NCBI GenBank assembly: GCA_024679065.1
Contig: JAGIQG010000011.1
Coordinates: 6,820,001-6,884,000, forward strand
Length of the DNA: 64,000 nt
Direction of reading: 5' to 3'
From: Sphyrna mokarran
Taxonomy: Eukaryota
Shown here one piece after another: positions 18,334-42,890 of this stretch; position 1 is the first letter of the stretch; each line of letters opens with the position of its first letter. Both the position numbers and the translations under genes were made by a program. Below the pieces are notes generated by a model. That model saw nothing but the letters and a program-made list of their open reading frames with translations, did no database searches and was not told the DNA's origin.

Positions 18334-18534
18334 CTAACAAAAAATCAATGTGCAAGAAATATCCTGTTAGTGCAAGTATTAATGAAAGTTATCCAGTTAG
18401 TGTAATTTTGCTATCGTAGTTCCCATGTTCTACTGAAGTTAAAGTTCTTGTATCGCAGCAGTGGCTACACTTCAAAAGGATGTCAATTTGGACATGAAGA
18501 TTGAAAAGTGCAACTTCTTTCACCAAATTGTCGA

Positions 18535-19738: not shown

Positions 19739-20569
19739 TATGCTACCACTTTAACGTGCCTAAGCAAAGAGGAGCAGCATCTCACACAGATGCTGCCACA
19801 CCTATTGAGTTTTTCCAGCAATCTCTGATTTTATACTGTTTTCCATTTTCCAGCATTTGCAGTACTTTGGTTATTTTTGCTGAAGACAATATAAGGGTAA
19901 GAAACTCAAGCTCAGAAAGCATATTCTGAATTTTATGGGTATGATCTGTCAATCTGAAATGTTAACTGTTTCTCTCCACAGATGCTGTCAGACCTACTTT
20001 TGTTTTCATTTCAGATTTATCATCATTGGCAGTATCTTGCTTCTGAATGAAAACTTTAAACTGGTTCGATCGAGACACCAAGGACCAATGTCAATCAGCA
20101 TGGGCTGGAGTGATGCTTGAATAGTATGCCTTTTGCTGTTAATCAAGTATAGCCCTCCTTCAGTAATGAATCAGTAGTTGTCCACATTGAACCTGAAAAG
20201 GGCAGTTGTGATATGAACATGGGTGGACTGGTGTTGGCAGCACAATGTTTGTGGATTAATGATCTAGTGACACAAATTAAAGACAGAAGGTGGCGAAAAT
20301 AACTTGGCTTAAACTAGTGAATTCATTGGACCTGAGATTGAACCAATTCTTTCCTGGTCTAAACACACAAAATGTTGGATAAACACAGTAGGTCTGGCAG
20401 CATATGTGGAGAGGTCCACATGCTTTTACTGACAGTGATCCATTTGACTCAAATGAATAGTGCTGTACCCAATTCAGATCCTAGTTAATTTAGAACTTTG
20501 AAATAATATAATTACTGAAATTAATATTTTAAATATTTAATAAATTTGGAATAAAATAATGATTAATAA

Positions 20570-22370
20570 TGATCATGAAACCAATTAGACTGTCATAAAA
20601 AAACCATCTAATTTATTAATGTCTTTCAGGGGAGGAAATGCTGTTCTTGTTCTGTCAGGCCTACATGTGATACCCAGACTCACAGGAATGTGGTTGGTTC
20701 TTAAATGCCCTAACAAGCCACTCAGTTGTATCAAACCATTACAGGAAAGTTGAACATTAAAATTGGATTGCCCAGCATGGACCTAGGTGCCAGAAATAGC
20801 AAAGGCAAATCCTGCTCCATTGAATCTGAAAGGTCTTCCTCTCTATCATCTAGGAGAGAAATTAGGAGAGCTGTCTCACAGATTGAGTCAGACTAACTGA
20901 ATGATACCTTACAGCCAACGTCCTAAATACCAGTCCCTGGTGATTTCCTCTCCCACCAGCAGGACACACGCACCAGAGTTGGCAGCACAATACAGAGCCA
21001 GGAGGCAGCGACTTGGGAACCCTCAACATGGACTCCAGATCTCATGTAGTCTCATATCATTTTAAAACTTTATTTAATAGTGTCATAAAAGGCATACATT
21101 AACACTGCAATGAAGGTCCTGTGAAAATCCCCTAGTCACCACATCTCCAGCACCTGTTCAAATATAACAAGGGAGAATTTAACACAGCTAACTAGCGCAT
21201 CTTTAGGACTGTGGAAGGAAACCAGAGCACCCAAAGGAAACCCACACAGACACAGGGGGAACATGTAGTCTCCACACAGAGAACAACCCAAGCCATGAAT
21301 TGAACCTGGCGCTGAGGCAGCAGTACTAATCAATCTGCCACTATGCCATCCTGTTAAAGGCAGGCAAGGAAATTCCTAAATTATCACCTACTACCCTCTG
21401 ACAGCTGATGAACCAGCACTCCATGTTGAATGACACTTGGAAGAAGCACCAGGGGTGTCATTGAGGGGGGCTCAGCAGCACCAAACTGAATTCTGAAGAA
21501 CATATATGCGTCCAAAGTAGGTAGTGAATGAATCCAAGTGACAGGAGAATCCTACTTGATTTGTCCTCATAAATCTACCCCCCACAGATATCAATTGTGT
21601 AATGGACAGATGTTATCATGACCACCACGCAGTCCTTATGAGACTAAGTCCCATATTCACACAGAGAATATACTTCATCATGTTGTGTGACACAATTCAG
21701 AATAGATTACCGGCGCTAAAACTAAGCAATGATGGAGGCGCTGCGGGACTTCACCAGGAACAGAACTGCATTCAATCACAAACTGTAAGTTCATGGCCTG
21801 GAATACCCTTTACTTGACCATCATCAAGCATGGACCAACACTGGTTCAATGAGGCCTGGAGGAGAGTATGAATTGCCTACTCACTGAAGCTTGTCAGACA
21901 CTAAAGAGCAAGTACAGACAGATCTAACTAGTCCCATAACTAACAGATCAGATTATAATTCTGCAGTCCTGCCACATCCAGTTGCGAATGTCAGTGAGCA
22001 ATTGAATCAAGTGGAGGAGGCAGCTCCACAAATATTTACATCTTCAATGATGACAGTGACAAGTTACCCTGGTGTTGTGAGACTTCTTACAATGCCAGGT
22101 GTGTCAGTGAAAAGACAAGACTGAGACATTTTCAATCATCTTCAGCCAGAAGTGCCAAATGGATGATCCATTTTGGTCTCTGCCTGAGGTCCTTACCATC
22201 ACTTCATTCTTTAGATAATTTGATTTATCCCATTTGGTACCAAGAAATGGATGAAAATACTGGATATGGTCCCTGACAACAGGTGCTCCAGAACAAATTA
22301 AACCCCTAGCAAAACTAATTCAGTAGTTACAACACAGACATCTCCCAGGCCATACAGAAAATTGTGGCTG
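20570..22370 (+). mobile_element. Decayed LINE (CR1/L2 group), interrupted by a SINE
   Basis: Shares sequence with the copies at 43870-45385 and, in reverse, 50300-50540. Frames are broken. Confidence 0.55.
21062..21352 (-). mobile_element. V-SINE with an alternative tail (...ttcattgcagtgttaatgta...taaataaa)
   Basis: Same head and V core as 19415-19738 but a different 3' tail. That tail recurs on + at ~47210-47332 and ~50705-50850. Confidence 0.8.
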
Positions 22371-24299
22371 GTGTAAGACTAAAACAGTTCCATTTTAAAT
22401 CATGTTAGATGTTTGTTTGGCAAACATATATCAGAATTCTATGTACCAACAGAAGGTTTAAGGAGTTTTAATAAAATTAATGTATGTAGCTAAGACAATC
22501 CAATGTTCATGTGGCTTGTCAGTGATTTATATTCGACAAGATTAATCGAGCAAGATTCACCGCATTCAGAAAAAGGGATAAATGGTGGTGATGAGGAGCC
22601 AGCAAGAGAGCATGTACAGTTTTCCAAGCAGCAACTTCATGAATGTGCAGAATAAATATGCAACATGTAACTAACCCCTATAGCAAAACTCTACGCACGA
22701 GTTCTGCTAGCCAGATTATTGCTGCAAGAAAACCTGACTTCTGAGGAAAGGTCCCTACATATTTCAGTGTTCAGAATGTATTTCCTGGATCATTTTTTTT
22801 TGCCAGTAATGAGCAGTGAAGATGATGAGAATATCTCTCTTCTGCTCCTAGGGAGCGTCTAAAAAATTTTCACACATACTTCTACGAGCACTTTTGAAGT
22901 ATAACTTAAAGTTGCATACTTGATTTTTTGCCTAGTATTTAATCAACACACAAAATAATTAAGTATTCAGCAATTAAACATATAACTCAATCTAAATGCA
23001 CTGCTAGAATTGAAAATTGTTGGTGAACTTGTGCTTTCAGCAGTGTAGAGTATAAATGCTACATAGATGAGTTGAGTCAATGGTCTGTAGACTTCACGTA
23101 ATTATTGTTGAAATAATTTTTCCATAGCAGGCCATTTTAACAGCAACTTTATCAATCACATATTTTCTTAAAATATAGGCAACAGCAACTTTCTTCCTTA
23201 ACATGCTCACACTTGGGTTGGAATTCATAGAAGTTCTGCACAATATTACAAAAGGACATCAGTAATGTAATCAATAACACTCAGAGCAGCATGCTTTAGA
23301 ATTTCTAACAATTGTAAGATAATTAGAAGTGCAGAAATAAATGAAAATATACAGCTGTGTATGTTGACAAGCACCAAGAAAAGCCAGTCTTACAGACCAA
23401 CCAGTCATTCAAATGTCGTCTGCAGGACTTTGTCACATGTGCAGTATGGTTGCTGAGTTTCCTATATTCTGCAAATCAAGGTTTTCGATCCCCCGAGATG
23501 CATCATAAGGTGCAAATGCAAAGTCTTCCTTCCTAAAAAGGTGTTCAACTTCAACATGCAAATATTACCACATCATCACTCAAGACGCATGGATCAAGAG
23601 CAGGATAAAGCCTCCTTATCTCAACTTTTTTTAAAAAAAGGATTGCAGATGGCCAGGGATCTAGACCAATTCTCCTATCAACTCTCAAACTGATTGTAAA
23701 CAAGGTCTTAACTGGCCTACATTCTCTTTCCCTCCTGACAGGAAACAGCACGAGGGTTCAAGTAATTGGAACACACCAAGAATGTACACACATTAAGTAG
23801 TTCTTTCATGTACCCAATGAGTAAACAAACTCAAATTAACTTAAGGACAAATTAAGAGGGGCAGTCCCCCAGAAAGGAAGAGGAACAGCCTGAAGTCCAA
23901 AGGAAACTTAAAACATTAAATCAAAATGTGATTGTAAGGGTCTACATATACAACACATACCAGCCCCTGCAGCGCCCAGTGGGCACAGAAGGCGTCAACT
24001 TATACACATTAAGAAGCTAGCTCAAAAGTAGATTAATATTCCAAATTGGATCAACATAAAGAGCAGGAACTACAAGGATTTCTCTCTCTCTTCATGCCTA
24101 CTAAATCTGACACTAATAACATCTGACAGCACAATAACATTACTGGCATATCAAAACCTAATCAATTAAAGAAAGGACTGTGGTACCAATAAATAAAGTG
24201 CTTTACTTGGTATTGGAAAGCCTTTAAAATAGTTTTTTTTATACTGTATGATATGGATCGGTGGAATCCTACACTACACGCCTCATTAAGAAATGAATC

Positions 24300-25190
24300 T
24301 AGGCGTTGGTGAGCTTTCTTAACTATAATGTCGGGATGGGGGGGACCAGGACAGATTGGTGGTGATTTGGACACCTAAAAACTTGAAGCTCTCGACCCAT
24401 TCTGTTTCATCCCCATTGATGTAGATGGGCAGGTTTTTCTTTGTTTCCTGAAGTTGATGACAATTGCCTTCTTTTTATTGACACTGAGAGAGAGATTATT
24501 TTTGCTGCACCAGTTAACCAGATTTTCTAACTCGTTCTTGTATTCTGTTGCTTCATTGTTTGAGATCTGACTCACTATGATGATGTTGTCAGTAAACGTG
24601 AAGACTGAGTTGGATGATAATTTAGCTGCACAGTCCCAGGTGTACAAGGAGTATAGTAAAGGGCTGAGAACACAACCTTATGGGGCACCGGTGTTGAGGA
24701 TGATTGTACTATTGCCTATCCTGACTGATTGTGATCTGTGAGCTCCGAAATTCAGAGTCCAGTTGCAGAGAGAGGTGCCTAGGTCCAGACCACAGAATTT
24801 GGAGACGAGTTTTGTGAATAATAGTGTTGAAGGCTGATTTGTGGTCAATAAAAAGGAGTCTGACATGGGTATCCTTGTTATCTAGGTGTTCCAGGGTTGA
24901 GTGCAGGGCCAGGGAAATAGCATCTGCTGTAGACCTATAGCAGCAGTAGACAAACTGTAGTGGATTCAGGTAGTCTGGGAGGCTGGAATTAATATATGCC
25001 ATAGGTAGCCTTTTGAAGCTCTTCATAATGATGGATGTCAGAGTCACTGGCTGATCGTCCTGAAGGCATGCTGCTTGGTTTTTCTTTAGTACTGGGATGA
25101 TGGCTGTCGTCTCGAAGCAGGTAGGGATCTCAGATTGTTGCAAAGAGAAATCGAAGCTGTCTGTAAATACTTCCACTAGCTGATCTGAGT
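24300..25190 (-). mobile_element. Rex1/Babar-clade LINE RT fragment
   Basis: ORF pieces [52 protein letters not shown] (decayed FADD) and KKAHQRL are typical of Rex/Babar RT. Confidence 0.85.
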
Positions 25191-25199
25191 ACACCATCT

Positions 25200-26370
25200 G
25201 GGCCAGTTAGTCATGGCAAGACTGGATCCTGAACTTCCTAACTCTCAGACCACACAATCAGTAAGGGTAGGCAACAACACCTCCTCCACAACACTGATGC
25301 CCCACAAGGCTGTGTTCTCAGCCCCCTACTATACTCCTTATATATTTAAGGCTGGTGCAGCCAAATTCCCCTCAGTTTTCAGGTTTGCTGATGACACTAC
25401 CATAGTAGGTCGGATATCAAACAATGACGTGACAGAGAAACAGGAATGAGATAGAGAATCTGGTAAACTGGCGCGGCAATAACAATCTCTTCCTTAATGG
25501 CAACAAAATGATTTTTTTCTGATAGATAAGGAAATTAAGAGTTATGGGGAGAAAGTGGGAAAGTGGAACTGATCCACTTCTGATCAGCCATGATCTTGTT
25601 GAATGGCGGAGCAGGCTCGAAAGGCCTACTCCTGCCCCTATTTCTTGTGTTCTTATGAAGGAGATTGTCATCAACTTCAGGACACGAAAAGAAGAACATG
25701 CCCCTCTCTATATCAATGGAGACGAAGTAGAAAGGGTGGAGAGCTTCAAGTTTTTAGGTGTCCAGATCATCCACAACCTATCCTGGTCCCCCTCATACCG
25801 ACAATATAGTTAAGAAAGCACACCAACATTTCCACTTTCTCACAAGACTAAAGAAATTTGGCACGTCAGCTACGACTCTCACCAACTTTTATAGATGTAC
25901 CATAGAAAGCATTCTTTTTGGTTGTATCACAGCCTGGTATGGCTCCTGCTCTGCCCAAGACTGTAAGAATTTACAAAAGGTTATGAATGTAGCCCAATCC
26001 ATCACGCAAACCAGCTCCCATCCAATGACTCTTTCTACACTTGCCATTGTGTCAGCAAAGCTGCCAGCATAATTAAAGACCCCACTCGCCCCAGACATTC
26101 TTTCTTCCTTCCCAAAAAAGATACAAAAGCCTGAAGTCACATACCAAGCAACTCAAGAACGGCTTCTTCTCTGCTGCTTTCAGACTTTTAAACGGACTTG
26201 CCTTACATTATGTTGATATTTCTTTACATCCTAGCTCTGACTATAACACTACATTCTGCATTCTCTCATTTTCTTCTCTATGAACAGTATGTTTTGTCTG
26301 TATAGCATGCCAGAAACAATACTTTTCACTCTATGTTAATACACGTGACAATAAATCAAATCAAATCAAA
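25200..26370 (+). mobile_element. Rex1/Babar-clade LINE 3' half, with a CR1 tail nested at ~25510-25655
   Basis: Motifs FRFADDTTIVG, VESFKFLGV and LTNFYRCTIESILFGCITAWYG. Ends in aataaa followed by a (tcaaa)n microsatellite tail. Confidence 0.88.
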
Positions 26371-26474
26371 AGGTTAAGCTCAGCATCTGAGAAAGTAGGC
26401 CAAATGTACATGGGCCAGTTGTAGATCAGAATTTTTACAATCAGCAATTATTCTTATAGTCTCTTACTGGCCTA

Positions 26475-29240
26475 AGACTACAAGAACTAGGAACAGGAGT
26501 AGGTCGTTCAGCACCTCAAGCCTACTCCACCACTCAATAGGATCATGGCTGATCTAACATTCCTCATGTCTACTTTTCTGCCTTTTCTCCATAACCCTTG
26601 ATTTGCTTACCAGTCAAGAATTAATCTACCTCAACCTTAATATACACAAGGATTCTGCCCCCACAGTTCTCTGTGGCAAAGGGTTCCAAAGACAATCAAT
26701 TTTCAGTCAGGAAATTCCTCCTCAGTTCAGTCTTAAATTGGCATCTGTTTATTCTGAGGCAATGCCCTCTGGTCCTAGACTCTTCCATGAGGGGAAACAT
26801 CCTCTCAGCATTTACCATGTCAAGGCCCTTAAGATTCCTATGTGTTTCATTGAAATCACCTCTCATTTTTCTAAATTCCAATGAGTAGGTTCCAACCTGC
26901 TTAACCTCTTATCACGAAGCAATCCTTCCACATTGGGGATCATCCTAGTGAACCTTCTCTGAACGGTTTCCAAAGAAAAAATACATTTCCTTAAATACGG
27001 GGAACAAAACTGTCCATAGTACTCCAGGTGTGGCTTCACTCATACCACGTACAGCTGCAGCAAGACTTCTCCACTTATATTCTAACCCCCCGAAATAAAG
27101 GCCAATTTTCCATAAGCCTTCCTGATTACCAGCTACACCTGTGTGCGTTGCATGCACAAATACCCCCAAGACCCTTTGTGTTGCAGCTTTCTGCAGTTTT
27201 TTTCCCCATTTAAGTAATATTGTTCCTTTCCAAAATGAACAATTTCACATTTTCCCTCATTGTACATCATTTGCCAACTTTTTGTCGACTTACTTAACCT
27301 ATCAATGTCTCTTTGCAAGCTGTTCATATCTGTCTTGTAACTGTCTTTCTACTTATTCTTGTCATCCGCAAATTCGGCTATATTACACAGTGCTTCTTTC
27401 CTTCAGGTCATTAACGTATATTGTGATAGTTTCTGTCCCAGCACTAATCCCTGTGGAACCTCAATGGTTACAGGTAACTAACCTGAAAAATAATCTCTTA
27501 CCCCCCCCCCCCACTCACTATTCCCTACGCTTTATCAATCCTCTAACCATGCCAGCATACTATCTCCAACACATGGGCTCTTATCTTATGCTTTAACCTT
27601 TTGTATATTACCTTGTTGAATGTTTTCTTGAACATCACAACACATCAACTGGTTCCTCTCTATCCACATTGGTTGAGACTTCCTCAAAAAACGCTAACAA
27701 ATTAGTCAAACATGATTTTCCTTTCTTGAAGCCATGCTGACTCTGCATGATTAGATTATGATTTTCCAAATGTGCTGTTATTACCTTAATAATCGATTCC
27801 AACAATAGATGTTAGGCTAATCTGCCCATAGTTTTTGCCTTCTCCCATTTTTGAGAAGGGCTGTTGAATATTGGCAGCTTTCCAATCCTCCAGTATCTTT
27901 CACAGAATCCAAGATTTTTGGAAAATTATAACCAATGCATCCACTATCTCTGTAGTCATTTCTTTTAGGATCCTAGGATGCAAGCAATCAGGGCCAAGTG
28001 AGATATTTGCATTTAGCCCCATTAGTTTGTCTACTATTACTCCTCTAGTAATGGAAATTTACTTCTTCCCCATATTCTTTAGTATTAATGTGATATTTGA
28101 AGCATCTTCTGCTGTAAAGACTGATGCAAAATACCTGTTGAACTACTGTCATTTCCTTACTCCCCATAACAATCTCCCCAAATTCATTTTCTAAGGGGCC
28201 TATGTTCACTCTTACCTTTCTCTTTCTTTCTATGTATTTAAAGAAGCTATTGTTGTCAGCTTTTATATTCCTTGCTAGTTTACCCCGAAGTTTATTTTCT
28301 CACTACTATCTTTTTAGTTCTACTTTACTGGATTCTGAATTTATCCATCTTCTTTCTCTAGTCTTTGGGGTTATCACTGACTTCTGCCTCCTTATATACT
28401 TTCTCTTTTAATTTAACATTCTCCTCAACATCCTTGGTTAGCCTTTGTTGCTTTATGCCTCTCTTAGGATCTTTCTTTCTTACTGAGATATGTATGCAGA
28501 CAGCCATAAATTAATTCCTTGAATGTCTGCCATTGCTTGCTTCTCTTTTCTGCTAATCTATCTGGCCAATCCACTTCAGTTAACCTATCCTTATTTCATT
28601 ATGATTCCCTTTACTTAAGTTAAACATACTTGTTTCAGTTCCAAGTTTCTCTCTCAAACTAAATATTAAATTCTATCATGTTATGATCACTGCTTTCTAG
28701 GGGATCTTATACTCTGAGGTTATTTTTTAAACCTGCCTCATAAAATAGCCTGTTTTCTAGTTGGCTCCATGATATATTGCTCTAGAAAACTCTCTAATGC
28801 ACTGAATTCATTGTCATGGCTCCCTCTCCAACTTGATTAATCCAATTAACATGTAAAGTCACCCACATTTATTACTCTATTCTTTCAACATGCTCATATT
28901 ATTTGTTGATTTATATTCTTACAAACAGCAAGGCTACTGTTGGAGGTCTACACACCGTCCCTACCAACATCTTTCTCTTGCTGATTTTGTTCTTACCTCC
29001 ACCCAAGTGGACTCTACATCATCTGAACCTAGATCATCTCTCAAAACTGTCCTCATTTCAGCTATTAACAGTGCTATCCACCATCTTTTTCTTCCCTCCT
29101 GTCTTTCCAAACAGTCAAATATTCTTGAAAATTAAGTTCCCAGTTTTGATCTCCTTTTAACTATGTCTCCATAGTGGCTATGATATCATATCAATTTATC
29201 ATGATTTGCACAGTCAGTTTCTCAATCTTATTCCAAATGC
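26475..29240 (-). mobile_element. CR1 LINE, ~2.8 kb, decayed
   Basis: Minus-strand ORF pieces SLQRDIDRLSK...KCEIVHFG and RMRGDFNE...MFPLMEESRTRGH. The CR1 tail lies at the left end. Confidence 0.85.
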
Positions 29241-29694
29241 TATGTGTTACATTAAAGTCTTAAGGCTGGCCTCTTTTAATAATCCCAACTTTTCTGTCGT
29301 GCTTATTTGTCTCTCGCACTCAACTACCATTTTTGTGTTTTAATCTCGTCATTGTTTCTTTTTCCCTTGCCACCCTGTACTGGCAATCCAAGGTCCTGAT
29401 ATCTCAGAACTTGGGTATTGAAATCCAAAATTGTTCAACATTTCACGGCATCTCTGAAGTGTTTTGTAGTTAAAATTCAGAGATAAAGATCAATGTATCT
29501 ATTTGTTACTGCTGCACTCTGGTCTTTGCTTTGAGGAATATTATTTGCTAAGCCTTTGAAATGGCGAAAAGCATTGCTCAGAATTTGTATCATGCTAGTT
29601 GTTCAATGGGGAATAAGTGCAATACAGATCCAATGTGGCTACTGTACTTCTAGACTGATTTCACACCAATGGATGTCTTGAGTTACTAAAACTA

Positions 29695-30900
29695 AGTTAC
29701 AGAATCTCAAGATTGGTATGGTGCAGGTGATGGCCATTTGACCCATCATGTCTGCGCTGCTCTTCAAAAGAACATTATGACCTTGTTTCTATTTACATAT
29801 TTAACCAATACCCCTCTTGAATATCTTCAATGAACCAGAGTCCACACATTGGACAATACATTCCAGATCCCAACTACCTGTTGCATGCAGTAGTTTTGTC
29901 TCACATTGCATTTGAATTTGTGTCCTCTCAATTCTTTTAAGAGCAGGAACAGTTTCTCATCATCTCCTTTTGTCTTTCTGTGGCTCCTTCATGCCATACT
30001 CAGTAGATGATGCCTTGATGTTGAAGGCAGCCAAGATCATCTCACCTCTAGTATTCAGCTCCCATCCATATTTGGACCAATGTTTTTTTTGGGCCCTGCA
30101 CAATCTGCAGGATCCAAACTGCGCATGGGTAGTTGGCGATTGGTGGATAACTGCCACTTGATAGCATTGTTGACAACACTTGCATGCCTTTTCCAACGCC
30201 GGGACAAAACTGATGAAGTGATATTTGGCTAGGAGATGTGTCCTTTTTTTTGTGCATGGTATATACCTGGACAATTTTCTACTGCTATGCTGTACGCTAT
30301 ACTGGAACAGCTTGTTCAGTGTGGCTGGCTCTGGAACACAGATCTTCAGTACCTGTAACCTTTGCAACGCTGAATGCACATAGCTGTTCCTTGATTATGA
30401 GAATTAAGCAGAATTTGTTGCTGATATCTACAATGGAAACTCAAAAAAGACGAAGATCAGCTATACCCCTATAAACACTTCTAACTGAAAATCAAAGCAA
30501 ATGATTCAGCCTTATATTTTGCTTCCTCATTATTAATAGGAATTTTTTTTCAGAACTTTGATATAGTCCGCTGGCTGCAAGATCATTTAGTTCTGTCAAT
30601 AGCATGCTGCTGTTCAGCAAACGTGTGTAGCTTCATTGGGTTTACATCTCAATATTAGGTAGCCCTGTTGTTACTTTTGGCTTGCTGTTCTAGACTCCTT
30701 GTTGAACCAGGATTAAGTGTTAGCTTGATGTGAATGAAGTAGTAAAGAATATGTCAGGCCGTAAGTTACAGATTGGGTGGAATAAAATTATTTTGCCAGT
30801 GGCACACTGTGGGAGTGTTGCACAGAATGGACAATGTCCCATGATGGGACATGGTGGCCACAAAGATTGTGTTCATTCCTACCAATTCTGTCATGGAAAA
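29695..30900 (-). mobile_element. Composite of decayed LINE fragments
   Basis: CR1-like tail at ~29700-29950, followed by sequence complementary to the 20570-22370 family. Confidence 0.5.
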
Positions 30901-33479
30901 TTGTATCTGCAGCACTAGCTTTGTCACAAACCAGCCATTTAAACTAAGTTAGCACCACCTAAAGGGAACCTGCTGCAGAGAATTCTTGTCCAGGCATCCA
31001 AAAACCAGTAGTTAGCTATATTAACTTAAATTTTTCAGAACTATTGAGATTATGAATTACAGTTGGTAAAGAACTCGTGGCCTAAGCTAAGTGACACCAG
31101 TGGTTTTGCAATACAAATCTGAATTGCAAGTTTCTCTGACTCCAGAACAAAACATGCATCTTTCAAGGTTATGGCGTACAGTATGTTTAACCTACAGAAA
31201 AGTGACCAGCTTAAACATTCCTTTCAGATTTTACTTTTTGTTCTAAACATATCCTTAAGGGCCTTGAGCTTTGCTGGTGTTGATTTTTCTTCTCAGGATT
31301 TGGTGGGAGAGGGCAGTGCAATTTACATGCATCCAATGCTTTTTTACTGGGTATGAGTGGCCATTATTCATCAATAGTGCATTTGAATGTGCCATTCAAC
31401 TGTAGGATAAGTAATAGTTGAATCTAGTCTTGCTTTCATTTAATACCTATATATATAATTCTGATGCGACCACTTTATTGAAATGATGTGGTCCATCAGA
31501 AGTCACATTCACCACAAAATATCCTATAGATAGGAGTGCAGAATCTAAAAACTGTGATCTCTTTGTCCTGACCTCCACTTTTGTTCACAGCCCTGTGCAC
31601 CTCAAAGTGGAAGTTTTATATTATGGTGAAGATTCCCAGTCTTTACTTCCAGCTGTCAGCTGGAGAAGTGAATTTGTAATCAGCCGAATAATGATGCAAT
31701 TCTGCATTGGGAGGAAGAAAATTTCAAAAGGAATGCAATCAACAAATGAGTCCCTTACGTCGAGTGTGGAGCAGGCTTCATACTTTTGTACAACAGATAA
31801 TTGGTGCCATTTGATTTAGATTTTTAAATTGAGGACTGGACATCCACTGAATACCACAGTAAGGGCGAAGCTTCAACTTATCTAGATTGTGTGAAATCAT
31901 AACCTAGAGTAATAAAGAATTTTAACAAATAGAAATTGACAACTAACCTTGGGAGCTTAGAGAAATTTATTAGTAATGGGAAAGAAAAAACTAACACCAC
32001 ACTTCAGAAGCAGGATCTAGCTGCAGCAAATTGGAGCAAGGAGAAGAAAATTATTTTGAAGAAAAGAGTACTATTCCCTTCTTGAGGTGACAGAAATACT
32101 GAATGTGCAAGTTCAGCTAATTTGAATGAAGTAACATTCAGTTGACTTCTGAGTTTAAGTAAAAATGCTGTATTCTTACAACTGCTGTCTCCATATCACA
32201 CTCTTACATTCCATATGTTTCATTTTGAGAAAATTATATTGAGAAGAAAGAAGGAACATGGAAATGATTCTAGACTATTGAATTTAATGGCATAATTTCC
32301 AATGCACTAACAGAGATTGTACAGCACTTCTCCATTTAAGATTCTTTTGCCGTGAAATCAAACTGATTCAATTATCAATTAATACTTCTGCCATTTGATA
32401 ATAAGTTAAACAAATCTTTTGATCGTCTAGGTGGCATGGAAGTGTGAAAGGAAATGGATTGAAGGCATGTGGCTTGGAATCAGTGACCATTGGTTCAAAC
32501 AAAATGTTTCACCTTGCAATTCAGAGATGCTCCCTAACCCATCTGCTGAGACTGGTGCCAGCACAAAAGCAAATGTTAGTACTGCTTCACTGCGCAGCTG
32601 TTTGACTCAGTGGGCTATTCAACTTAGTAAAGACCCTCTTATTAGAACTGAACAGGTGCGCTGGAGTAAAATAAATCAGATCTCTATTTGGCAAAAAAGA
32701 GCTGCTTATAGATGTGATTCTGTTTTTTTTAAAAAAGACAGCAAAACAAAAATCACAAAATACTCAGCACAATATGTTGCACCTACTTTGCCTTGCAAAT
32801 TGAACCATAGGAAGCAAATACAGCCTAAATTAAAACTTCGTGGTCTGCCAGGTTTAGCAAATTTGGCTTTTTATACATCCAAAATGGTCATCACACTTAA
32901 AAATTAGTTTAACAGTGACAAATGCATAAAAAAAGCAACTCTCACCAACACATTGTTTTTTAATCTTTATCTCCTGTCCAAGTCTAGCCCTGCTTTCAAG
33001 GTGGTGATTTATTTGCAGGCCTGGTACATTTTGTTTAGATCAACTGAATTAAACAGAAGTCCATCACAAAATAAAGAGATATAAACCGTAAACAGTGTTC
33101 TGCCTGATTTTTTCAGCATATTAATGCCAATAACAAAATTCATGCTCAAATCCACATACTTAAATGTTGAGTCAATGTTATTTTGTGTGATGCTTTATTT
33201 ATCATCTGAAATTGCTCCCACCACTATAACTGCCAGTGCCAAGATTGCAATGTTGGGCATTAAATAGTTTACGTAAGGTAAAATCTGTCTTGCTCTATTT
33301 TAATAATAATTTCCAACATCATTCATCAATTAAATCAATGAAAACATTTATTGTGCAGACTTCTGAAAGTTTTAGATGCCCACAATTACATCTTACTAAA
33401 TCCTAGAAATAATATTCATGATTTAAAATCAGTGACAATAATGAAGGTAAACAAAACAAATACAAAAGAAAGTACAATA

Positions 33480-34430
33480 ATCAGTCTTACTAGTTGATTG
33501 AGTTTTTAAAGAGTTAATAGCAATGATTGATGACAACAATGTGGTTGACATGATACGTATGGACCTCCAAAAGGTATTTGATGAAGTGCTACAGGTTAGC
33601 TTGTCAACAAGCTGAAGCCCACTGAATAAAAGACACAGTGGCGGTATGGATACAAAGTCAGCTGAGTGACAAGAGAGCGTAGTGGTAAAAAGATTACTTT
33701 TGGACCGGAGTAAGTTACAAGAAGTCATAGATAAGTTGGTGGAATAGGTAGATACAAGACATATGGAATTCAATGTAGAGTAGTAATATATTTTAATAAC
33801 AAAGAAAGGCAATACAAATTAAGGTACAATTCTAAAGGGGTGCAGGAACAAAGGTATGTGCACACTAACTCTCTGAAAATGGGATGGCAGGTTTAAAATG
33901 CAGTTAAAAGGTTTATGGGATCCCGAACTTTATAAATAGAAACATTGAATGTAAGGAAGTTAGATGTACTACTGGCATGGCCTCATCTGGAGCACTGTAT
34001 CCTGGGCACCAGACTTTAGGAAGGATGTAAAGATTTGAGAGAGGATGCAGGAAAAAAATAAGAATGGTTCTAGGAATGAAGTACTTCAGTTACAAGAATA
34101 GATGGGAATAGCTGAAATAAAACTGTTGAAAATCATGAGTAGATAGGAAGAAACTGTTTCATTTGGCGAAAGGGTAGGGACACAGATACAGTAATTGGCA
34201 AAAGAAGAAAAGGTGAGTGATTTGGACCTGGAATGCATTGCCTAATAGGGTAATGGAGGCAGATATAATCTTGATTTACAGAAATTAACTGAATAAGCAG
34301 CAAAGATTAAAATACTTTAGCATTATAGCAAGGGCAGGGGAGATGGACAAACTGAATGCTCTTGCAGAGAGCCAGCTTGACTTGAAAGGTTGAATGGCTC
34401 CTTCTGTGCTGCAACCATTCTATGATTCTA
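33480..34430 (+). mobile_element. CR1 LINE 3' fragment
   Basis: RT motif remnant (atggacctccaaaaggtatttgatgaagtg, cf. MDFQKAFDKV) and the tail gaatggctccttctgtgctgcaaccattctatgattcta. Confidence 0.75.
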
Positions 34431-35271
34431 GTCCACAACATCTGTTGCAATAAACTTCAGTGACATATTTAACCACTGGATTCCATTCAATATTGAAAGA
34501 GTTTTAAAAAGTTGAGACATTCAGATACACATGGTTTCTTTATAACAATGCAAGTTCAACATTTTTTACATCTCTATTACCTAAACAGGATACATTGTAT
34601 AATATAAGATTTATAGAGCTAATAATCATTCACCTCTCAGACAACTTTTACCTTTATGCATTATGGAACTGGGCCATCTCTTAGTGCAATATGATATATT
34701 CCATTCAAAAACATATCTGCACCTGGATTTAAATCTTGCAGTTAAAAAAATTCTAAAACTCATAACCGCAGTCGAATTATTTCAATCAACAATAAAACAA
34801 GAATAAAGAGATGGTAACTAGCTATTGAATGCACCTTGCATTTCTCTTATGGGCCAACATTTCCAACTGTATATCCTCCTTTAGAAGAGAAAGTTTCATT
34901 ACGACAAATTGAGAACATCTTTCATGATATAGTCATCTTACTTAGTTCAATCACAATATGATTTCACTAGTACTAAAAAGCTTATTCAATGGCACCATGA
35001 TGAAAAGCACCACTATTGCAAAACAGCCTCTATTGCCAACTGGTGATCACCTCACCTGGAGTCACTGCCAGTGTGGATACAATTGTCTTTTGATTGTGTG
35101 GTGAGGAGAAAAGGACAGAATATGGTTCCAATTTGCTGCTCACTGACTGCTGTTGTAAAGTGCATTGCTGTTGATAGCAGCATGCTCAGCTATAATTGGC
35201 TCCATAACTGAAAGGCTTAGCGAAAAACTTGGGTTAGCTATAGGAAGGCACTGCTGACCATGAAATTCTAG

Positions 35272-35480
35272 GTATACAGATGCCGGCGTTGGATTGGGGT
35301 GGTAAGAACTCAGTAAGAATTTAGCAACACCAATTTATAATCCAACTGATTTATTTGATAGTAAAAACGCGAGCTTTCAACACTCTGTGTCTTCCTCAGG
35401 CAAATGCAGTGTTCTGGACCAGAACACTGCATTTGCCTGAGGAAGACACAGAGTGTTGAAAGCTCGTGTTTTTACTATCA
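35272..35480. mobile_element. Short Penelope-like fold-back element with hammerhead motifs (element A)
   Basis: 13-bp TSD catgaaattctag at 35259-35271 and 35481-35493. 62-bp inverted arms 35356-35417 and 35419-35480 with one mismatch. Each arm carries CTGAGGA-a-GACAC-aga-GTGTT-GAAA-GC-TC. Confidence 0.8.
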
Positions 35481-35669
35481 CATGAAATTCTAGTCCAGTC
35501 CAACATCAACAACCATCTCTGATGGAAAGGAGGCATTATATAATTGAATTCAACATTAATAAATGCATTTTCTCAAACATGCTTTCAAAACTGGTATATT
35601 CAAAAATGTGTGTTACAAAAGAGCCCAACTTTTATCACAACCACTGCATTAGCACTGATAAGCTAGACA

Positions 35670-35774
35670 CTGCATTTGCCTGAAGACACAAGAGTCGAAA
35701 GCTCGCTTTTTTACTATCAAATAAATCGGTTGGATTATAAATTGGTGTTGCTAAATTCTTACTGAGTTCTTACC
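35670..35774 (+). mobile_element. Short Penelope-like element B, same family as A
   Basis: 10-bp TSD aagctagaca at 35660-35669 and 35775-35784. Near reverse complement of ~35300-35409. Motif CTGAAGA...GTC-GAAA-GC-TC. Confidence 0.8.
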
Positions 35775-35807
35775 AAGCTAGACAAGAACAGAGTGACCAG
35801 TACTTTT

Positions 35808-35992
35808 GACATCCAACAGGTTTATTTGGTATTGCAAGCTTTTGGAGCACTGCTCCTTCATCAGGTGATAATCACTTGATGAAGCAGCAGCACTCTGAAA
35901 GCTTGCAATACCAAATAAATCTTTGACTTTAACCTGATATTTGAGGCTCCTTACTGTGCCCACCCCAGTCCAAAGCTGGCATCTCCACATCA
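35808..35992 (+). mobile_element. Short Penelope-like fold-back element C
   Basis: Inverted arms ~35821-35869 and ~35871-35920. Motif (c/t)TGATGA-agnagcag...ctc-(G/A)AAA-gct on both strands. Probable TSD cagta(c/t)tttt at 35798-35807 and 35993-36002. Confidence 0.75.
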
Positions 35993-36112
35993 CAGTATTT
36001 TTTTTTGAGTGAAATAATATAGAATACTTCATCGAGTTAAAACTATGGCTTGAGGATCACAATTCAAGTGGTAATAAATGTGGAACGAACAGGAGACAAG
36101 AATTTTGCCATT

Positions 36113-36425
36113 TTAGAATCAAAATCCCCACAGCGCAGGAAGAGACATTTAACCCATTGACTTGCACTGACAACAATCCCACCCAGACCTCATCCCCATA
36201 ACCCCACTTTGCTAATCTCCCTGACACTAAGGAGCAACTGAAAATGGCCAATTAACCTAACCCCCACATTTCTAGGCTGTGGGAGAAAACTAGAGCACCC
36301 AGAGAAAACCCGTACAGACACAGGGAGAACATGCAAACTCCGCACAGACAAGTTATTTGAGGTTGGAATTGAACCCAGGTCCCTGATGCTGTGAATCAGT
36401 ATATTCTAACTACTGTGCCACTATG
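36113..36425 (-). mobile_element. HE1-type V-SINE
   Basis: Minus-strand head gtggcacagtagttag...gggttcaattcc, V core and CR1-type tail. Confidence 0.85.
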
Positions 36426-38699
36426 TTTACACTGGAAATTGATTGTGTCTGCCAGTCTGTGTCGGTGATCTTTCCTTTTTGAGAAAGATTGTTGTTCAAT
36501 GTGGCCAATGCTGGCAAGGCAATGTGTTATTCTCAGTTAACAGCATAAAGGGTCAACCACAGTGCTGGTCTGTTGGTTAGGCCAGTTGAGAGTATGTTTT
36601 AAGGATAAACCAGTTGTGCTTTTAAACATAAAAACCAACAGCTTTCTTTATACCAAATTTAGAGTTCATTTCACAATTTGACATATTGAGATTTTAAAGT
36701 CATCATCTTTGACTTTCTGGTCCAGAACCATAACAATACTTTACTGTCCCAATCTTACTTTCAAGAAGTAGCATTTCAGCAAAATCAAAAAACAATCTTT
36801 CGGTGGTTTCAAAGTCACTCTCAATGGCAACATAAATCTGCACTACCAGATGCACTGATAACCAAGGAGTTTCTGCAGGGCCTAAAACATCTGCAAGATT
36901 TCCTGGCTAGTGTAGACATCCTCTTGTTCAGTAACTAAAAACAAATCACAAAATAGACTTTTCTCACAGTAATCAAGGCGGAATTCACTTCATAGTACAA
37001 CTTTGCCACAATGTTTGAAACTGTGGTAGAACTGTCACAGGATGGAACTATCAAAATATGAAGGGCCATGAAACAGGAGATGGAAAGCTGTGGAAAGAAA
37101 ATCCCTCTCTTCCTGACCAGTAGGTATCTCCCAAAGCAACTATTCTGCTCAATTTGGCAGTCAGAATAGAAACCAAACACAAAATGGACATTGTGTTTCA
37201 ATGTCCATGACCTTTTCAATGATCTCAACTTTGACAGTTCGCTGTCAATGTTGCCTACTGAGAGAACCTTACAGAAAATCAAGGGCAATTAAGATCTATA
37301 ACTGGGAACTTCACCAAGGGATGACCAGGAGGAGATGAAGCAACTGTCAAGATTTGCACTAGAATAGCATCAGAGGTTATTGGGAAGGGAATCACATACA
37401 GATAGAACAGTTAGGGGGTAAAAGTGATAGAGAGATGAAAGGAGCATACTCTTGCTGAGTTTAAAAAGTTTGATGAATGGTCATTAACCCAAACCGTTAA
37501 CTATTCCTCTGCCCACAGATGCTGCTGAGTATTTCCAGACCTTTTTTATTTTAAGTGTTTTTGCGTCAAAGGCAATTTCAAAGTTAGATGTTCCTGAAGA
37601 GTGAATGTGCTATGTTAGTGATAGTCACTCTGGAAAACAGAGAGGGGAGGAACGGTGCATCTTGTGTTTAGATCAGAGTGTAGTTTATAGAAATAGCAGA
37701 CAATTACCTAATAATGCAGCTTAAGATAAAAGATGAAAAGAGTCTGAGATTATGGGCAGAAGCAAGTGGCCAAGAAAGTGGGGCACCCATGACCAAAGAC
37801 TATCGCTAGTAGATAATGAAATTGTTAAAAAAAAACCATCACTGAAGTTCAGGTGTAGAAAATGTCGATCAGAGCACTTGTAAATGGTGATAAAGAAATC
37901 TGGGAGTGGCCTAACATGGTGAAGATACAGTTTTTGCAGGAAAAGATATGATTAAGAATCATATTTCCAAGAGCAGTGAAACATTTTGGATTGAAGGGTA
38001 CAACAAAAAGCCAACTGACAGATGGGAAAGTAGGCCCAGCAAAAAAAGAAATAAGAAAGACAAGTGAAGCTGAAGGACGAAATGAGAAGTTCAAAGAAAT
38101 TCACAAAATGAAACTGAAAGTTAGCAGCAGCACCAATGTATCACAAACAGAAACAGGATTTTGACTACTTTTTTTCTCTAATTCTTATGAATACTTCAAA
38201 ATCAACCTTACGAAAAGGGATTCCCTAGTCTCACCACATAAGAGCTGATTAAGGTTCACGTTCACAACTAAAAGTCTTGTATACACATCAACTGGCAATA
38301 CAGTCCCAGCTTTTATTTCAGATTTCCATGTCACGATTTTCTTCAAAGTACAATGTCAATATGTATAGATAATTAGCTTGTGTGCAGTATTTTGAGGTGA
38401 AATGTGTAAGTGAAACATGTTCACTCGGAGAACAAATGGGTTGCTTCATAAGGTCTCCCTTCTTTCTCTCAGGTTTTTCGATATTCTACCTTTTGAAAGG
38501 CATCAAAACTCCTGTTTAGGATATAGTTTCAAGGAGAAATCCCAAATGCAAAAGTCCAGCCTTTTTAGTGATACTTTGAGCACAACATTTGTTGCAAAGC
38601 ATTCAGAAGCAAAAGCTTCAGATGACTTTCTTCCATCTATCTTGAGAACCCATTATGACTACAACTATACTGCAGCTATCACTCGCACAAAAATAAGGA

Positions 38700-39750
38700 A
38701 GGGGTACAGAGTACAAGAGCTGGCCTTTAATGTTGCAGTTGTATAAAACGTTAATTAGACCTCATTTGGAATACTGCATCCAGTTCTGGTCGCCTTACTA
38801 CCAGAACGGTGTGGAGACTCTGGAGAGAGTGCAGAGGAGGTTTACCAGGATGCTGCCTAGTATGGAAGGTCTGAGCTACGAGGAGAGGTTAGGCAAATTG
38901 GGGCTGTTTTTCTTAGAAAAATGTAGACTTAGAGGAGATCTAATAGAGGTGTACAAGATTATGAGGGGTATAGATAGAGTAAACAGGGTTAAGCTTTTTC
39001 CTAGGATGGACTCGAATACCACGAGGGGTCATGGGCTTAGGGTGAGGGGGGTAAGGTATAATTTGGATGCTAGTGGGAGTTTTTTCACACAGAAGGTGGT
39101 GGGGGTATGGAATGTGCTGCCAAGTAAAGTGGTGGAGGCAGGCATTCTGGAGTTATTTAAGAAATACCTAGATGGGCACACAAACAGAATGGGAATGGAG
39201 GAGTATAGAAAACTGATTTAAAATAGGGATCATGAGCCTTGGGAGTCCCTGGAAAGTGTGTAAATTGTCGATGATATTGATGTACTTGTTTTTATCCTAC
39301 AGGTGCTTTGGTCCACCTTGTTGTCTAACAAGAGGCATACACGCGATGGGTCATGAGAGAGCTGCTCTTGGATTTTTTGAGAGTATCCTAGTGCTTCACG
39401 TCGTTAGTGTACGCTTGACCTAGACCATTTGATGGGCAATACGACAGTTCAGTGATTATCGCTGTGCTGTGCAGATATACGGATGTGGGCCTGTGTCTGT
39501 AGGAGTTTGTGCATTCTCCCCGTGGTTGTGTGGGTTTTCTCCGGGTGCTCCGGTTTCCTCCCACATCCCAAAAATGTGCTCTTAGGCTAATTGACAAAAC
39601 AAATTCTCCCTAAATTGTCTCAAATTTGGTTTTTTAATCCATAGATCTATAAACATAGACAGGGATCATGGGTAGAGGTGGGAACATCGGGATGGCGGCG
39701 CGGGCTCGTTGGACCGAAGGGCCTGTTTCCCATGCTGTTTTGTTCTTTGT
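38700..39750 (+). mobile_element. Young 5'-truncated CR1 LINE with unusual 3' UTR
   Basis: Uninterrupted ORF 38730-39221: LYKTLIRPHLEYCIQFWSP...LERVQRRFTRM...LSYEERL...RLRGDLIEVYKI...TRGH. CpG-retaining tail ggcgcgggctcgttggaccgaagggcctgtttcccatgctg. Confidence 0.92.
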
Positions 39751-40002
39751 AACCAAAAAGCTGAACAAAGATGTTTTCGATCTGTGTGGCTTAGCTGTTC
39801 ATTGTTTTAATCAAACTGAAACATTGCAAATACCCCAGTTAGGTTGGGCATTAAACTCACATACTCATCAACCAAGCTCAGCCTAAGTCTGTGGCAAGAT
39901 TTCTTGTGCAATGTGGCTTCCAATTTGTGAAAACTAAACCCGGGATGCTCTCTGAGAGCAAGAAGAAAAAACACAATGACGCTGAGCAGCTGACAATTTG
40001 TT

Positions 40003-41240
40003 GCATATGAACAAGGCGGAGTGGGCCATTTGGTCGATTGAGACTGCTCCCTCTTTCAATAAGACCTTAGCTGATCTGATTTTAACCTCAATTCCACATT
40101 CCTGCTTTCTCCCACCCTCACCCGTAACCTTTCACTCCCTTGCTCATCAAGAATCTATCTATCCCTGCCTTAAAAGTATTCAAAGATTCTGCATCCACCA
40201 CTGTTAGATAAAGAGTTTCAAATACTCAAGATCCTCAGAGAATTATTCTTCCTAATCTCTGCCTTAATTGGGCGACCCCTTAATTTTAAATAGTGATACC
40301 TAGTTCTAGGTTCTCCCACAAGAGGAAACATCTTTTCTAGATCCACCTGTCAAGACCCCTCAGGATTTACATGTTTCAATCAAGTCACACCTCTTACTCT
40401 TCTAAACTCCACTGGATACAAGCTTAGGTCCAGCCTTTCCTCACAAGACAACTTACCATTTGAGGTATTAGTCTAGTAAACCTTTTATCAATTGTTCCCA
40501 ATCTATTTATATTCTTCCTTAAACAAGGATATCAATACTGTTCACAGTACTCCAGACATGATTGCACCAATGTTCTATAAATTGAAACATAAACTTCCTC
40601 ACTTTTGTATTCAATTTCCATCCCTATAAATATTAGCACTCTATTAGCTTTCTTAATTTACTGCTTGTATTTGCATACTGATCTTTTGCAATTCAAGTAC
40701 TTGGACACCCAGCTCCCTCTGTACCTCAGAGCTCTGCAATCTCTCACCATTTAGATAATATGCTTCTTTTACACTCTTCCTGCCAAAATGGATAACCTCA
40801 CATTTTTCCATGATATACTCCATTGGCCAGATCTTTCTCACTCAGTTAACTTATCTTTTTTAAAGCCTTTTTCTTGTCCTCTTCACAACTTATTTTCTTA
40901 TCTATTGCGTCATCAGCAAATTTAGCAACCATATGTCTGGTTGCTTCATCTAAATCATTTATGTGACTTATAAAATTTGAGGCCTCAGCAATGATCTTTT
41001 GGCACACCATTACATCTTGTCAACCAGAAAATGATTCATTTATGTCTGTGTACTGTTTCCTGTTAGTTAGCCAATCTTTTATCTGTCTGAATATGTTACC
41101 CCCTACTAATTGAGCTTTAATTTTCTGCAATCATGTTTGATATGGCTTCTGAAAATCTAAGCATAGCCCATTTACTGGTTCTCTCTCTGCACAAAATGTT
41201 ATTTCTTCAAAGAAATCCAATAAATTGGTTAAACATGATT
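40003..41240 (-). mobile_element. CR1 LINE 3' part, decayed
   Basis: ORF piece EKCEVIHFGRK...YYLNGERLQSSEVQRELGV, with the CR1 tail at the left end. Confidence 0.85.
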
Positions 41241-42200
41241 CTGTTGTGATAATAAGTATTTTCATGGCTGTTGTGATAAATGTGCTTTAATCATTGTTAC
41301 TCAAACAATGATTACTTCAAAATCATTATTGTTTTCTTCCCACTCCTCTTAAATTATTGCATAAATGAAAATTGTTTTGTAAAGCATGCTGAAGTGCTTC
41401 AAAAAAGGACAAGGAAATTGGACACCAAGAAGAATTTAGAAAAAATAGCTGAGATGACCGAAGCACTGGTTAAAGAGGTAAATTTTGAAGATAGATTAAA
41501 ATGGGCAAAGGTACAACACAGTCTGGAAGAGTGTCCCAAAGCATAAGACTAGAGTGGTTCAAAGCTGCAAATGATAATGATTCACAAGGGGGCAAAAATA
41601 GAAGAGTGAGGAGATTTAAACTAAGACGGAGGACAAGACAAGAGTGCAGAAATCTGGTGTAGAAAGATTCCAAAAAGAAATTAAAAATATTTGGGATGGT
41701 GTGTTAATGGGGATTTATGAATGATAAGACACAACACAATAGGGGATGCGACAATCTAAGCAAACATGATGTTCGAAGTAAGATGACATTCAAGTCATAG
41801 TAGTAGAAAGCCTTGAATGAATTGAGTTATTGAGAGGTATGGAGGGGGAAAATAGAAAGCATCAAAAGTGCCCACTGAACAAAGTCTTCGAAAAATGACA
41901 TCTTGAATGCTTTTGCCCAAGTTGATTTGAGGTCACTGCTAGAATATATGGAAAACATTGAATCAACTCCCAATTGTTGCACCAGCATAAGTTCTCAGCC
42001 TTCCAACTGTTTGAACAAATTTCATTGAAATATGTGCAGTACTAAAATAGATGTACCAAACTTGATCCTTTCAAACTTTATCCACAAACGTTACAATGGC
42101 AAATTTGGGGCTGCTGCCAATAATATTACTTAATATATGAAAACCAAACAACTAAAGTCAGATATTTGATTCCATGTTCTGTGTATGCTTTAATAGGGAC

Positions 42201-42333
42201 CCTCATCCGATGAAGAAGCAGCGCTTCCAAAGCTAGTGGCTTTTGCTACCAAATAAACCTGTTGGATTTTAGCCTGGTGTTGTGAGACTTCTTACTGTGT
42301 TTATCCTAGTCCAACGCTGGTATCTCCACATCA
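42201..42333 (+). mobile_element. Short Penelope-like element D, family of C
   Basis: ccGATGAagaagcagcgcttcCAAAgctagtg...ccaaataaacctgttgga...ccaacgctggtatctccacatca. Possible TSD taatagggac / taacagggtc. Confidence 0.75.
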
Positions 42334-42737
42334 TAACAGGGTCTGCCCAGAGCTTGGCACATGGATGACCTTAGCCCAGTCCACTGTTTCTTTTGCAGAA
42401 ACTCCTAACAAGTCATTTTGATGAAATTTTGGAGCACCAGTATTATGCTCATAAACAGACCACTCAGCTTGGAATTTGATCAATATCTCAGTTCTGATAT
42501 TATCTGTAATATTTATAGAAAAAGATGTACCCAGGCAGAAAACATCTCTCACGCGCCACCGCTGTTATTCTGTTCACAGACATGCCAAGTCCTGTACCTT
42601 CCTGAATAGCTTTTGATGAGGTTTTTGTTTTAACTGCACAGTATATAAATGCAAATAATCTAAATACCATTACTATCTGATCTGAGTTATTCCAACACCC
42701 TGTCACCAGAGGGCGTTCTAGATAAAGAAACACTTAC

Positions 42738-42890
42738 AATCATCATCTGCTCTTCTTTGTCCCCGCTCTCCTTGATAATAATTCGCTCAATCTCCTGGTT
42801 AAGACCCTCAACACTGTTGCGGAATCGGGAAACCGTTGACTTTGAAATAGGAATAGCCACTGGAATTAAAACAGTCTTTGGAATGGGTGC
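42738..42890 (-). CDS. FAM117B: FAM117B internal exon (153 nt)
   Basis: Bounded by tgtgttctAG and GTaagt, phase 0/0. Encodes APIPKTVLIPVAIPISKSTVSRFRNSVEGLNQEIERIIIKESGDKEEQMMI, containing the conserved SVEGLNQE motif. Confidence 0.95.

What the first reader, a model, noticed from the sequence alone, without database searches (positions are those of the whole stretch)
35272..35480. 209-bp fold-back retroelement carrying a hammerhead ribozyme motif locked in a 62-bp hairpin
Seen: a perfect 13-bp TSD and 62-bp inverted arms around a 1-nt centre (35418). Each arm reads tgc-CUGAGGA-a-GACAC-aga-GUGUU-GAAA-GC-UC-g(c/u)g. That gives the CUGANGA/GAAA/UH core, a 5-bp stem II, a ~3-bp stem I and a palindromic AGCU in place of stem III. 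Known: Penelope-like elements carry such minimal type I hammerheads that cleave as dimers, and they often insert with inverted pseudo-LTRs. Inference: a non-coding, non-autonomous mobile unit whose transcript from either strand has one ribozyme motif plus its own antisense. One copy would sit in FAM117B pre-mRNA.
Basis: partly seen in the sequence, partly recalled or inferred. Interest (0 to 1): 0.75.

Follow-up and report, generated by a model that had tools for sequence, protein, structure and literature searches.

The report
Stubby fold-back Penelope retroelement insertion
The hairpin is real but ordinary: it is a short, head-to-head double copy of the end of an abundant Penelope-like jumping gene that carries a small hammerhead ribozyme motif, and it was likely folded anew when it landed rather than jumping as a hairpin.

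Summary
Observation confirmed: exact 13-bp TSD, 62-bp arms (one mismatch), a minimal hammerhead motif in each arm, inside an intron of a FAM117-family gene. The reading as a self-contained non-autonomous unit is not supported. The arm is the pseudo-LTR of an autonomous Penelope-like element: RT plus GIY-YIG, Neptune-type motifs, intact 893-aa ORFs in 5 of 38 long copies, 3,538 exact hits of a mid-arm 30-mer. In 94 copies picked by their 3' end, 63 are head-to-head palindromes. Arms run from 36 bp to over 1.6 kb, with varied centres and 12-14-bp TSDs. One arm ends at the ORF start and the other about 35 nt short of it. This 'inverted copy plus tail' layout is published. No arm starts at the predicted cleavage site (0 of 157), and the hairpin is predicted to lock the core. 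Likely mechanism: both target nicks prime cDNA, at two start sites on the same template, and the two cDNAs are joined. Cleavage was not tested. The scan reported this kind before in other genomes.

The parts
35259..35271 (.). left copy of the 13-bp target-site duplication
   Evidence: (D5), exact match; family TSDs are 12-14 bp in 46 of 59
35272..35272 (.). one junction base that differs from the family sequence
   Evidence: other copies read A here
35273..35417 (-). tail-bearing arm: last 145 nt of the PLE pseudo-LTR, ending 3 nt before the ORF start codon of the parent element (positions -144..0)
   Evidence: 98.6% and 97.9% identical to the pLTRs that precede the ATG in L160 and L143
35368..35402 (-). 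minimal type I hammerhead motif on the host pre-mRNA strand; predicted cleavage after 35371
   Evidence: activity not tested
35418..35418 (.). centre of the palindrome; both orientations of this junction (T or A centre) occur among independent copies
35419..35480 (+). inverted, tail-less arm (positions -144..-83); its outer end is the shortest of 63, since 60 of 63 end at -28..-46
35434..35468 (+). second copy of the hammerhead motif, stem I weakened by the CpG change; predicted cleavage after 35465
35481..35493 (.). right copy of the target-site duplication
   Evidence: D5
35667..35775 (+). independent single-arm, tail-less copy of the same family (-139..-27), other haplotype, hammerhead core broken by a 3-nt loss; 10-bp TSD at 35660-35669 / 35775-35784
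18334..42740 (-). host intron of a FAM117-family gene that contains the insertion
   Evidence: PF15388 exon hits at window 42741-42881 (profile 108-152) and 18142-18333 (profile 151-217)

Best explanation
This is a short, likely dead-on-arrival insertion of the pseudo-LTR of an autonomous Penelope-like retroelement, and its two head-to-head arms were likely made during insertion by two target-primed reverse transcripts. Shown: the arm is the pLTR of an RT + GIY-YIG element; one arm ends at the ORF start (end A, 0..+8) and the other about 35 nt short (end B); TSDs are mostly 12-14 bp; either end can close a single-arm insertion; either arm can be the longer. Inferred: the endonuclease nicks both target strands about 13 bp apart, one 3' end primes at site A and the other at site B on the same element RNA (or on RNAs of one source), both cDNAs run off near position -145, which is probably the RNA 5' end, and they are joined by microhomology. 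The hammerhead is the parent's pLTR motif, copied from uncleaved RNA; in this copy it is predicted to be locked by its own antisense.
For: Link to ORF: (893 aa; RVT_1 E 1.5e-9; GIY-YIG E 5e-4, just under the curated cut-off). Palindromes in 63 of 94 tail-anchored copies; sense arms 36 to >=1,694 bp; outer ends of inverted arms at -28..-46 in 60 of 63 and never at the tail. Among 16 palindromes with a full-length arm, the tail is on the inverted arm in 10 and on the full-length arm in 6. Tail-less single arms with their own TSD: L142, L144, L148, L172, L176, L201 and window 35667-35775. Overlap of 2 or more nt with the target at end A in 34 of 59 and at end B in 36 of 59, against 18% and 17% by chance. 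The tail-less arm reaches further in for 23 copies, the tailed arm for 16, equal for 24. Arms of short hairpins share haplotype: 0 of 54 discordant at site -95 (19.7 expected from random pairing) and 0 of 54 at the stem II variant (9.1 expected). Inner ends: 80 of 157 at -152..-120, 0 of 157 at -103..-91. The layout matches PMC8557442 and PMC3846280; two RT start sites a tail apart, cutting and extension of both strands, and use of uncleaved RNA were shown in vitro for an anole element (PMC11167929).
Against: The five intact ORFs belong to a sister subfamily whose pLTRs are only 91-93% identical to the window arm in the four compared, so the direct parent was not found intact. Microhomology also marks repair-joined ends, and central deletions after insertion could create the asymmetry, so snap-back copying is not excluded for any single short copy; tiny snap-back tracts are visible at some junctions (L099). 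In long palindromes the arms disagree at upstream diagnostic sites (e.g. 10 of 27 at -222, 13.3 expected if random), which a strict one-template model does not explain without template switching, later gene conversion or assembly error. The RNA 5' end near -145 is inferred only; the RNA data available were contigs and showed no start. The window copy's B end (-83) is atypical.
Confidence: 0.72

Rival explanations
1. Same origin (truncated PLE pLTR, hairpin made at insertion), but the second arm is made by snap-back: one cDNA folds on its own 3' end and is copied back until about 35 nt from the target junction.
For: Arms of short hairpins are haplotype-identical (0 of 54 discordant); inner ends of the two arms correlate (Spearman 0.74); short templated fold-backs exist at junctions. 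Self-priming was proposed for PLE palindromes in PMC3846280 (passages read).
Against: The tail-less arm reaches further in than the tailed arm in 23 of 63, sometimes by hundreds of bases (L067, L101, L110). Full-length tail-less arms come with short tailed inverted arms (L162). Tail-less single arms carry their own TSD. Long arms differ in linked haplotypes.
Confidence: 0.18
2. One reading: the hairpin itself is a non-autonomous mobile unit, transcribed from either strand and re-inserted whole by the PLE enzyme.
For: Many copies have similar size (about 250 bp). Two copies, L025 and L026, share one complex junction and an arm-specific base in mirror image.
Against: That junction occurs only twice in 2.77 Gb, both on one contig. 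Centres vary, and arm lengths form a continuum into the ORF. The recurrent simple junctions sit on natural microhomologies. The size peak is also seen in single-arm copies, so it reflects a template boundary, not a hairpin unit.
Confidence: 0.05
3. The insertion has acquired a host role, as a cleaving ribozyme or a small-RNA hairpin in the FAM117-family pre-mRNA.
For: It is intronic with one motif in the pre-mRNA sense; a 62-bp near-perfect stem would be a substrate for dsRNA enzymes (general knowledge).
Against: It is a very young copy (99% identical to others) among thousands; freeing the core is predicted to cost about 32 kcal/mol; the motif has no stable stem III and needs a second sense copy; the neighbouring copy is on the other strand and has a broken core.
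Confidence: 0.03

Closest known systems
Insertion units of canonical EN+ Penelope-like elements: pLTR, adjacent inverted 5'-truncated copy, 30-40-bp tail at one end only (PMC8557442, PMC3846280, PMC8969392; passages read)
   Same: Head-to-head inverted copy, tail on one arm, variable TSD, 5' truncation, partial tandems, pLTR running into the ORF start.
   Different: Here the whole insertion is only pLTR, and a young family of thousands of copies allows the ends to be counted. The window copy's tail-less arm stops about 45 nt earlier than usual.
Neptune-type PLE ORF (RT, CX2-5CxxC linker, GIY-YIG with CCHH; PMC8557442)
   Same: [quoted passage not shown]
   Different: No phylogeny was run; Nematis shares the linker motif, so the clade is assigned by motif and host type only.
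Minimal hammerheads of metazoan PLE pLTRs (PMC4209133; parts 1-2 of 4 read)
   Same: Full core, extra base before stem II, palindromic 15.2-16.2 positions with no stem III loop, short stem I; the paper notes pairs on opposite strands 100-700 bp apart.
   Different: Stem I is only 3 bp and the first stem II pair is G-U in this subfamily rather than the usual G-C; cleavage untested.
Poseidon element PAc of the green anole (PMC11167929; parts 1-2 of 4 read)
   Same: Two RT start sites separated by the tail; both target strands cut and extended; hammerhead cleavage not needed for insertion.
   Different: PAc starts RT about 111-118 nt into its ORF and its hammerhead overlaps the start codon; here the sites are at about +4 and -35 and the hammerhead lies about 100 nt upstream of the ATG.
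Non-LTR retrozymes (bioRxiv 10.64898/2026.07.22.740005, part 1 of 5 and passages read; PMC7229834, search listing only)
   Same: Non-coding, type I hammerhead, derived from PLE pLTRs.
   Different: Retrozymes are head-to-tail tandems in which two sense ribozymes can act together; this is head-to-head with one sense motif per strand.

Membership tests
EN+ Penelope-like element (insertion of) | Sequence continuous with a single ORF encoding RT and C-terminal GIY-YIG | tested here: met
   GIY-YIG scores 20.8 and 20.1 bits against a 22.6 cut-off in two copies and 23.1 in a third
EN+ Penelope-like element (insertion of) | pLTR formed by a partial tandem that runs into the ORF start | tested here: met
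   most of 38 long copies have the arm sequence directly before the ATG and again after the stop
EN+ Penelope-like element (insertion of) | Inverted 5'-truncated copy with a 30-40-bp tail at one end only | tested here: met
   63 of 94; inverted ends at -28..-46 in 60 of 63, 0 of 63 with the tail; window copy itself ends at -83
EN+ Penelope-like element (insertion of) | Variable-length TSD | tested here: met
   exact TSD of 9-16 bp in 59 of 63
Neptune clade | CX2-5CxxC linker plus CCHH motif | tested here: met
   translation read against PMC8557442
Neptune clade | RT phylogenetic placement | not tested
   no reference PLE proteins were fetched
Minimal type I hammerhead | Conserved core with stems I and II and palindromic 15.2-16.2 | tested here: met
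   2 hits in the window, 0 in 100 shuffles
Minimal type I hammerhead | Compensatory changes in stems across related families | tested here: met
   5 of 7 pairs change on both sides in 9 motifs; motifs were chosen by a descriptor that requires pairing, so the percentage paired is circular
Minimal type I hammerhead | Match to an Rfam hammerhead model | tested here: not met
   none among 34 matches at E up to 10; whether these models can detect a motif without stem III was not tested
Minimal type I hammerhead | Self-cleavage as a dimer | not testable with these tools
   needs in vitro assay; the ribozyme fold is not the predicted minimum for monomer or dimer
Non-LTR retrozyme | Head-to-tail tandem units each with a hammerhead | tested here: not met
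   arms are head-to-head
Non-LTR retrozyme | Unit ends set by ribozyme cleavage | tested here: not met
   0 of 157 inner ends at -103..-91
Non-autonomous fixed-length element (SINE- or MITE-like) | Copies share fixed ends and a fixed internal junction | tested here: not met

The most novel reading that the evidence does not exclude
This young family records the missing step of the Penelope cycle: one enzyme complex primes both target nicks at two fixed sites 35-40 nt apart on one RNA, always one tailed and one tail-less, so head-to-head palindromes are its normal product. The abundant 250-bp hairpins are run-off copies of the mRNA's own 5' end, made from uncleaved RNA, and long arms switch templates as they grow.
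Probability: 0.4. Interest if true: 0.5.

Novelty: new member of a known kind. Interest (0 to 1): 0.2.

Why it matters
The single copy matters little. The family is useful because papers describe the origin of PLE inverted repeats and tails as undefined (PMC8557442). Here thousands of young copies and intact 893-aa ORFs give exact priming positions (about +4 and -35), a 12-14-bp stagger and a template boundary near -145. These can be tested directly in the in vitro system of PMC11167929. The family also seeds introns with near-perfect hairpins, a possible source of dsRNA.

Tried and rejected
Rfam scan: only sub-threshold hits, led by miRNA hairpin models that reflect the palindrome; no hammerhead family. 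Ribozyme cleavage as the template 5' end: rejected, 0 of 157. A splice junction at -146: single-arm copies show no shared upstream exon and no joint there in four contig sets; not supported, weakly tested. Remobilised hairpin clade: the L025/L026 junction is present twice only; only this one junction was counted genome-wide. Editing signature as a test of template strand: A>G versus T>C was 22:10 on sense arms and 22:16 on inverted arms, inconclusive. Expression: 17 runs listed, all contigs; four were laid, three of them only guessed to be RNA, so no start, strand or level can be read. No solved-structure or phage match for the ORF. ESM Atlas gave nothing for the host exon. Palindromes with the tail on both arms were not counted genome-wide; 0 of 63 were seen in the fetched set. 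Literature searches for Penelope + twin priming (3 papers) and Penelope + shark + palindrom (4 papers) listed no title on this mechanism or family; only listings were seen, and Repbase, Dfam and subscription journals were not searchable.

Full report
Observation. The sequence is as described. An exact 13-bp duplication (35259-35271, 35481-35493) brackets 209 bp whose last 125 bases form two 62-bp arms around base 35418, with one mismatch. The fold is far beyond chance (z = -18.5). A strict descriptor for a minimal type I hammerhead hits twice in the window, once per arm, and never in 100 shuffles. Rfam reports no hammerhead family. A FAM117-family gene on the - strand has exons on both sides; which paralogue it is was not established.

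Copy number. The window lies in a 2.77-Gb genome. A 30-mer from the arm's 3' end has 507 exact matches and a mid-arm 30-mer has 3,538; reversed controls gave 0. The best copies are 99% identical to the window copy, so the family is young. That the host is a cartilaginous fish is my recollection of similar repeats and the wording of earlier scan notes; no call showed it.

The arm belongs to an autonomous element. Below, position 0 is window base 35273 and negative numbers run into the arm. Copies with longer arms continue upstream into a reading frame with RT and GIY-YIG domains. A search with the ORF's 5' end gave 40 scored loci at 97% or more; 38 stretches were fetched and 5 hold an intact 893-aa ORF. 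Pfam gives RVT_1 at E 1.5e-9 and GIY-YIG at E 5e-4, slightly under its cut-off. [quoted passage not shown] The ATG follows the arm at +3. The window arm is 98.6% and 97.9% identical to the pLTRs before the ATG in L160 and L143, but only 91-93% to those of four intact copies, which form a sister subfamily.

Anatomy of the copies. I took 94 of the first 100 listed matches to the 3'-end pattern (the last 6 were not fetched). Sixty-three have an inverted arm directly adjoining. Sense arms run from 36 to at least 1,694 bp, and L123 is a 3.36-kb palindrome. The window copy is at the short end of this series. Outer ends are of two kinds: end A at 0..+8 (the reference stopped at +8; L110 goes further) and end B at -28..-46 in 60 of 63 inverted arms. 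None of the 63 inverted arms has the tail. The window's own B end, -83, is the most shortened. Among 16 palindromes with a full-length arm, the tail is on the inverted arm in 10 and on the long arm in 6. Exact TSDs of 9-16 bp were found in 59 of 63, 46 of them 12-14 bp. This is the published PLE layout of an inverted truncated copy with a 30-40-bp tail at one end (PMC8557442, PMC3846280, PMC8969392; passages read).

How the hairpin is made. Four results point to two primed ends. Tail-less single arms close with their own TSD (L142, L144, L148, L172, L176, L201 and the second window copy), as do tailed single arms; several others in those lists showed no TSD. Both ends overlap the target by 2 or more bases in about 60% of copies against 17-18% by chance. 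The tail-less arm reaches further in for 23 copies and the tailed arm for 16. Full-length tail-less arms occur with short tailed arms (L162). In vitro work on an anole element found two RT start sites a tail apart and extension of both cut strands (PMC11167929). In short hairpins the arms share haplotype: 0 of 54 discordant at -95 against 19.7 expected, and 0 of 54 at the stem II variant against 9.1 expected; this set includes the 30 similarity-selected loci. So both arms come from one template or one source. Against a simple picture, long arms disagree at upstream sites nearly as often as random pairs (10 of 27 at -222, 13.3 expected). Template switching, ectopic gene conversion or assembly error could each cause this and were not separated. 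Snap-back copying with later central deletion remains possible for any one short copy.

Is the hairpin itself mobile? Probably not. Centres differ widely and the simple recurrent junctions sit on natural microhomologies, in both orientations. One complex junction is shared by L025 and L026 in mirror image, but it occurs only those two times, on one contig. The size peak also appears in single-arm copies.

The hammerhead. The motif fits the minimal pLTR hammerheads of PMC4209133. Across 9 motifs from this and older related families, 5 of 7 stem pairs change on both sides while the core is invariant except at N7 and position 17; the motifs were picked by a pairing descriptor, so this is partly circular. 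Within the family the recurrent variants fall on N7, stem II, position 17 and the 3' strand of stem I, several at CpG sites. Cleavage would give a 5' end at -97, yet 0 of 157 inner ends lie at -103..-91, while 80 of 157 lie at -152..-120 with a sharp upstream edge. Copies were therefore made from uncleaved RNA, as reported for the anole element. The edge near -148 is best read as the RNA's 5' end, but that is inference: the available runs were contigs and showed no starts. In the window copy the core is fully paired on either strand and freeing it costs about 32 kcal/mol.

Verdict. A real, young, ordinary PLE insertion: a new member of a known kind. Five earlier scan notes on other genomes reached the same class of answer; I had reached my reading before looking and tested it here independently. 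What this family adds is a clean set of numbers on PLE priming that bears on an open mechanistic question. Supplements of the papers were not read and may hold related structures or sequences. Interest 0.2.

Noticed in passing
window 35667-35775 (+): Second, single-arm, tail-less copy of the same family with a 10-bp TSD, another haplotype and a broken hammerhead core, 190 bp from the finding.
   Followed up: yes
window about 35810-35992: Older fold-back insertion of a related PLE family: 52-bp arms at 87% around base 35870, tailed arm on +, degenerate hammerhead motifs; TSD not resolved.
   Followed up: partly
window 42203-42333 (+): Another old single-arm pLTR copy of a related family, about 73% identical to the arm, 400 bp from a FAM117-family exon.
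   Followed up: partly
L025 and L026 (G000:C1:79.09 Mb and 73.39 Mb): Two insertions with different TSDs share one complex junction and an arm-specific base in mirror image; only these two exist. Gene conversion between palindromes or a rare re-mobilisation.
   Followed up: partly
L049, L094, L107, L089 (positions -285..-222): The two arms of long palindromes carry different linked haplotypes although they agree near the priming sites.
   Followed up: partly
L052 (positions -318..-305): A cluster of four A>G changes shared by both arms, resembling editing of the template RNA.
   Followed up: no
L086, L099, L112: Three independent insertions into what looks like the same site of another repeat, with the same TSD sequence: a possible target preference.
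   Followed up: no
L162, L168, L169, L172, L176: Five copies with intact 893-aa ORFs; four share a distinct pLTR haplotype with U at N7, suggesting a recently active subfamily.
   Followed up: partly
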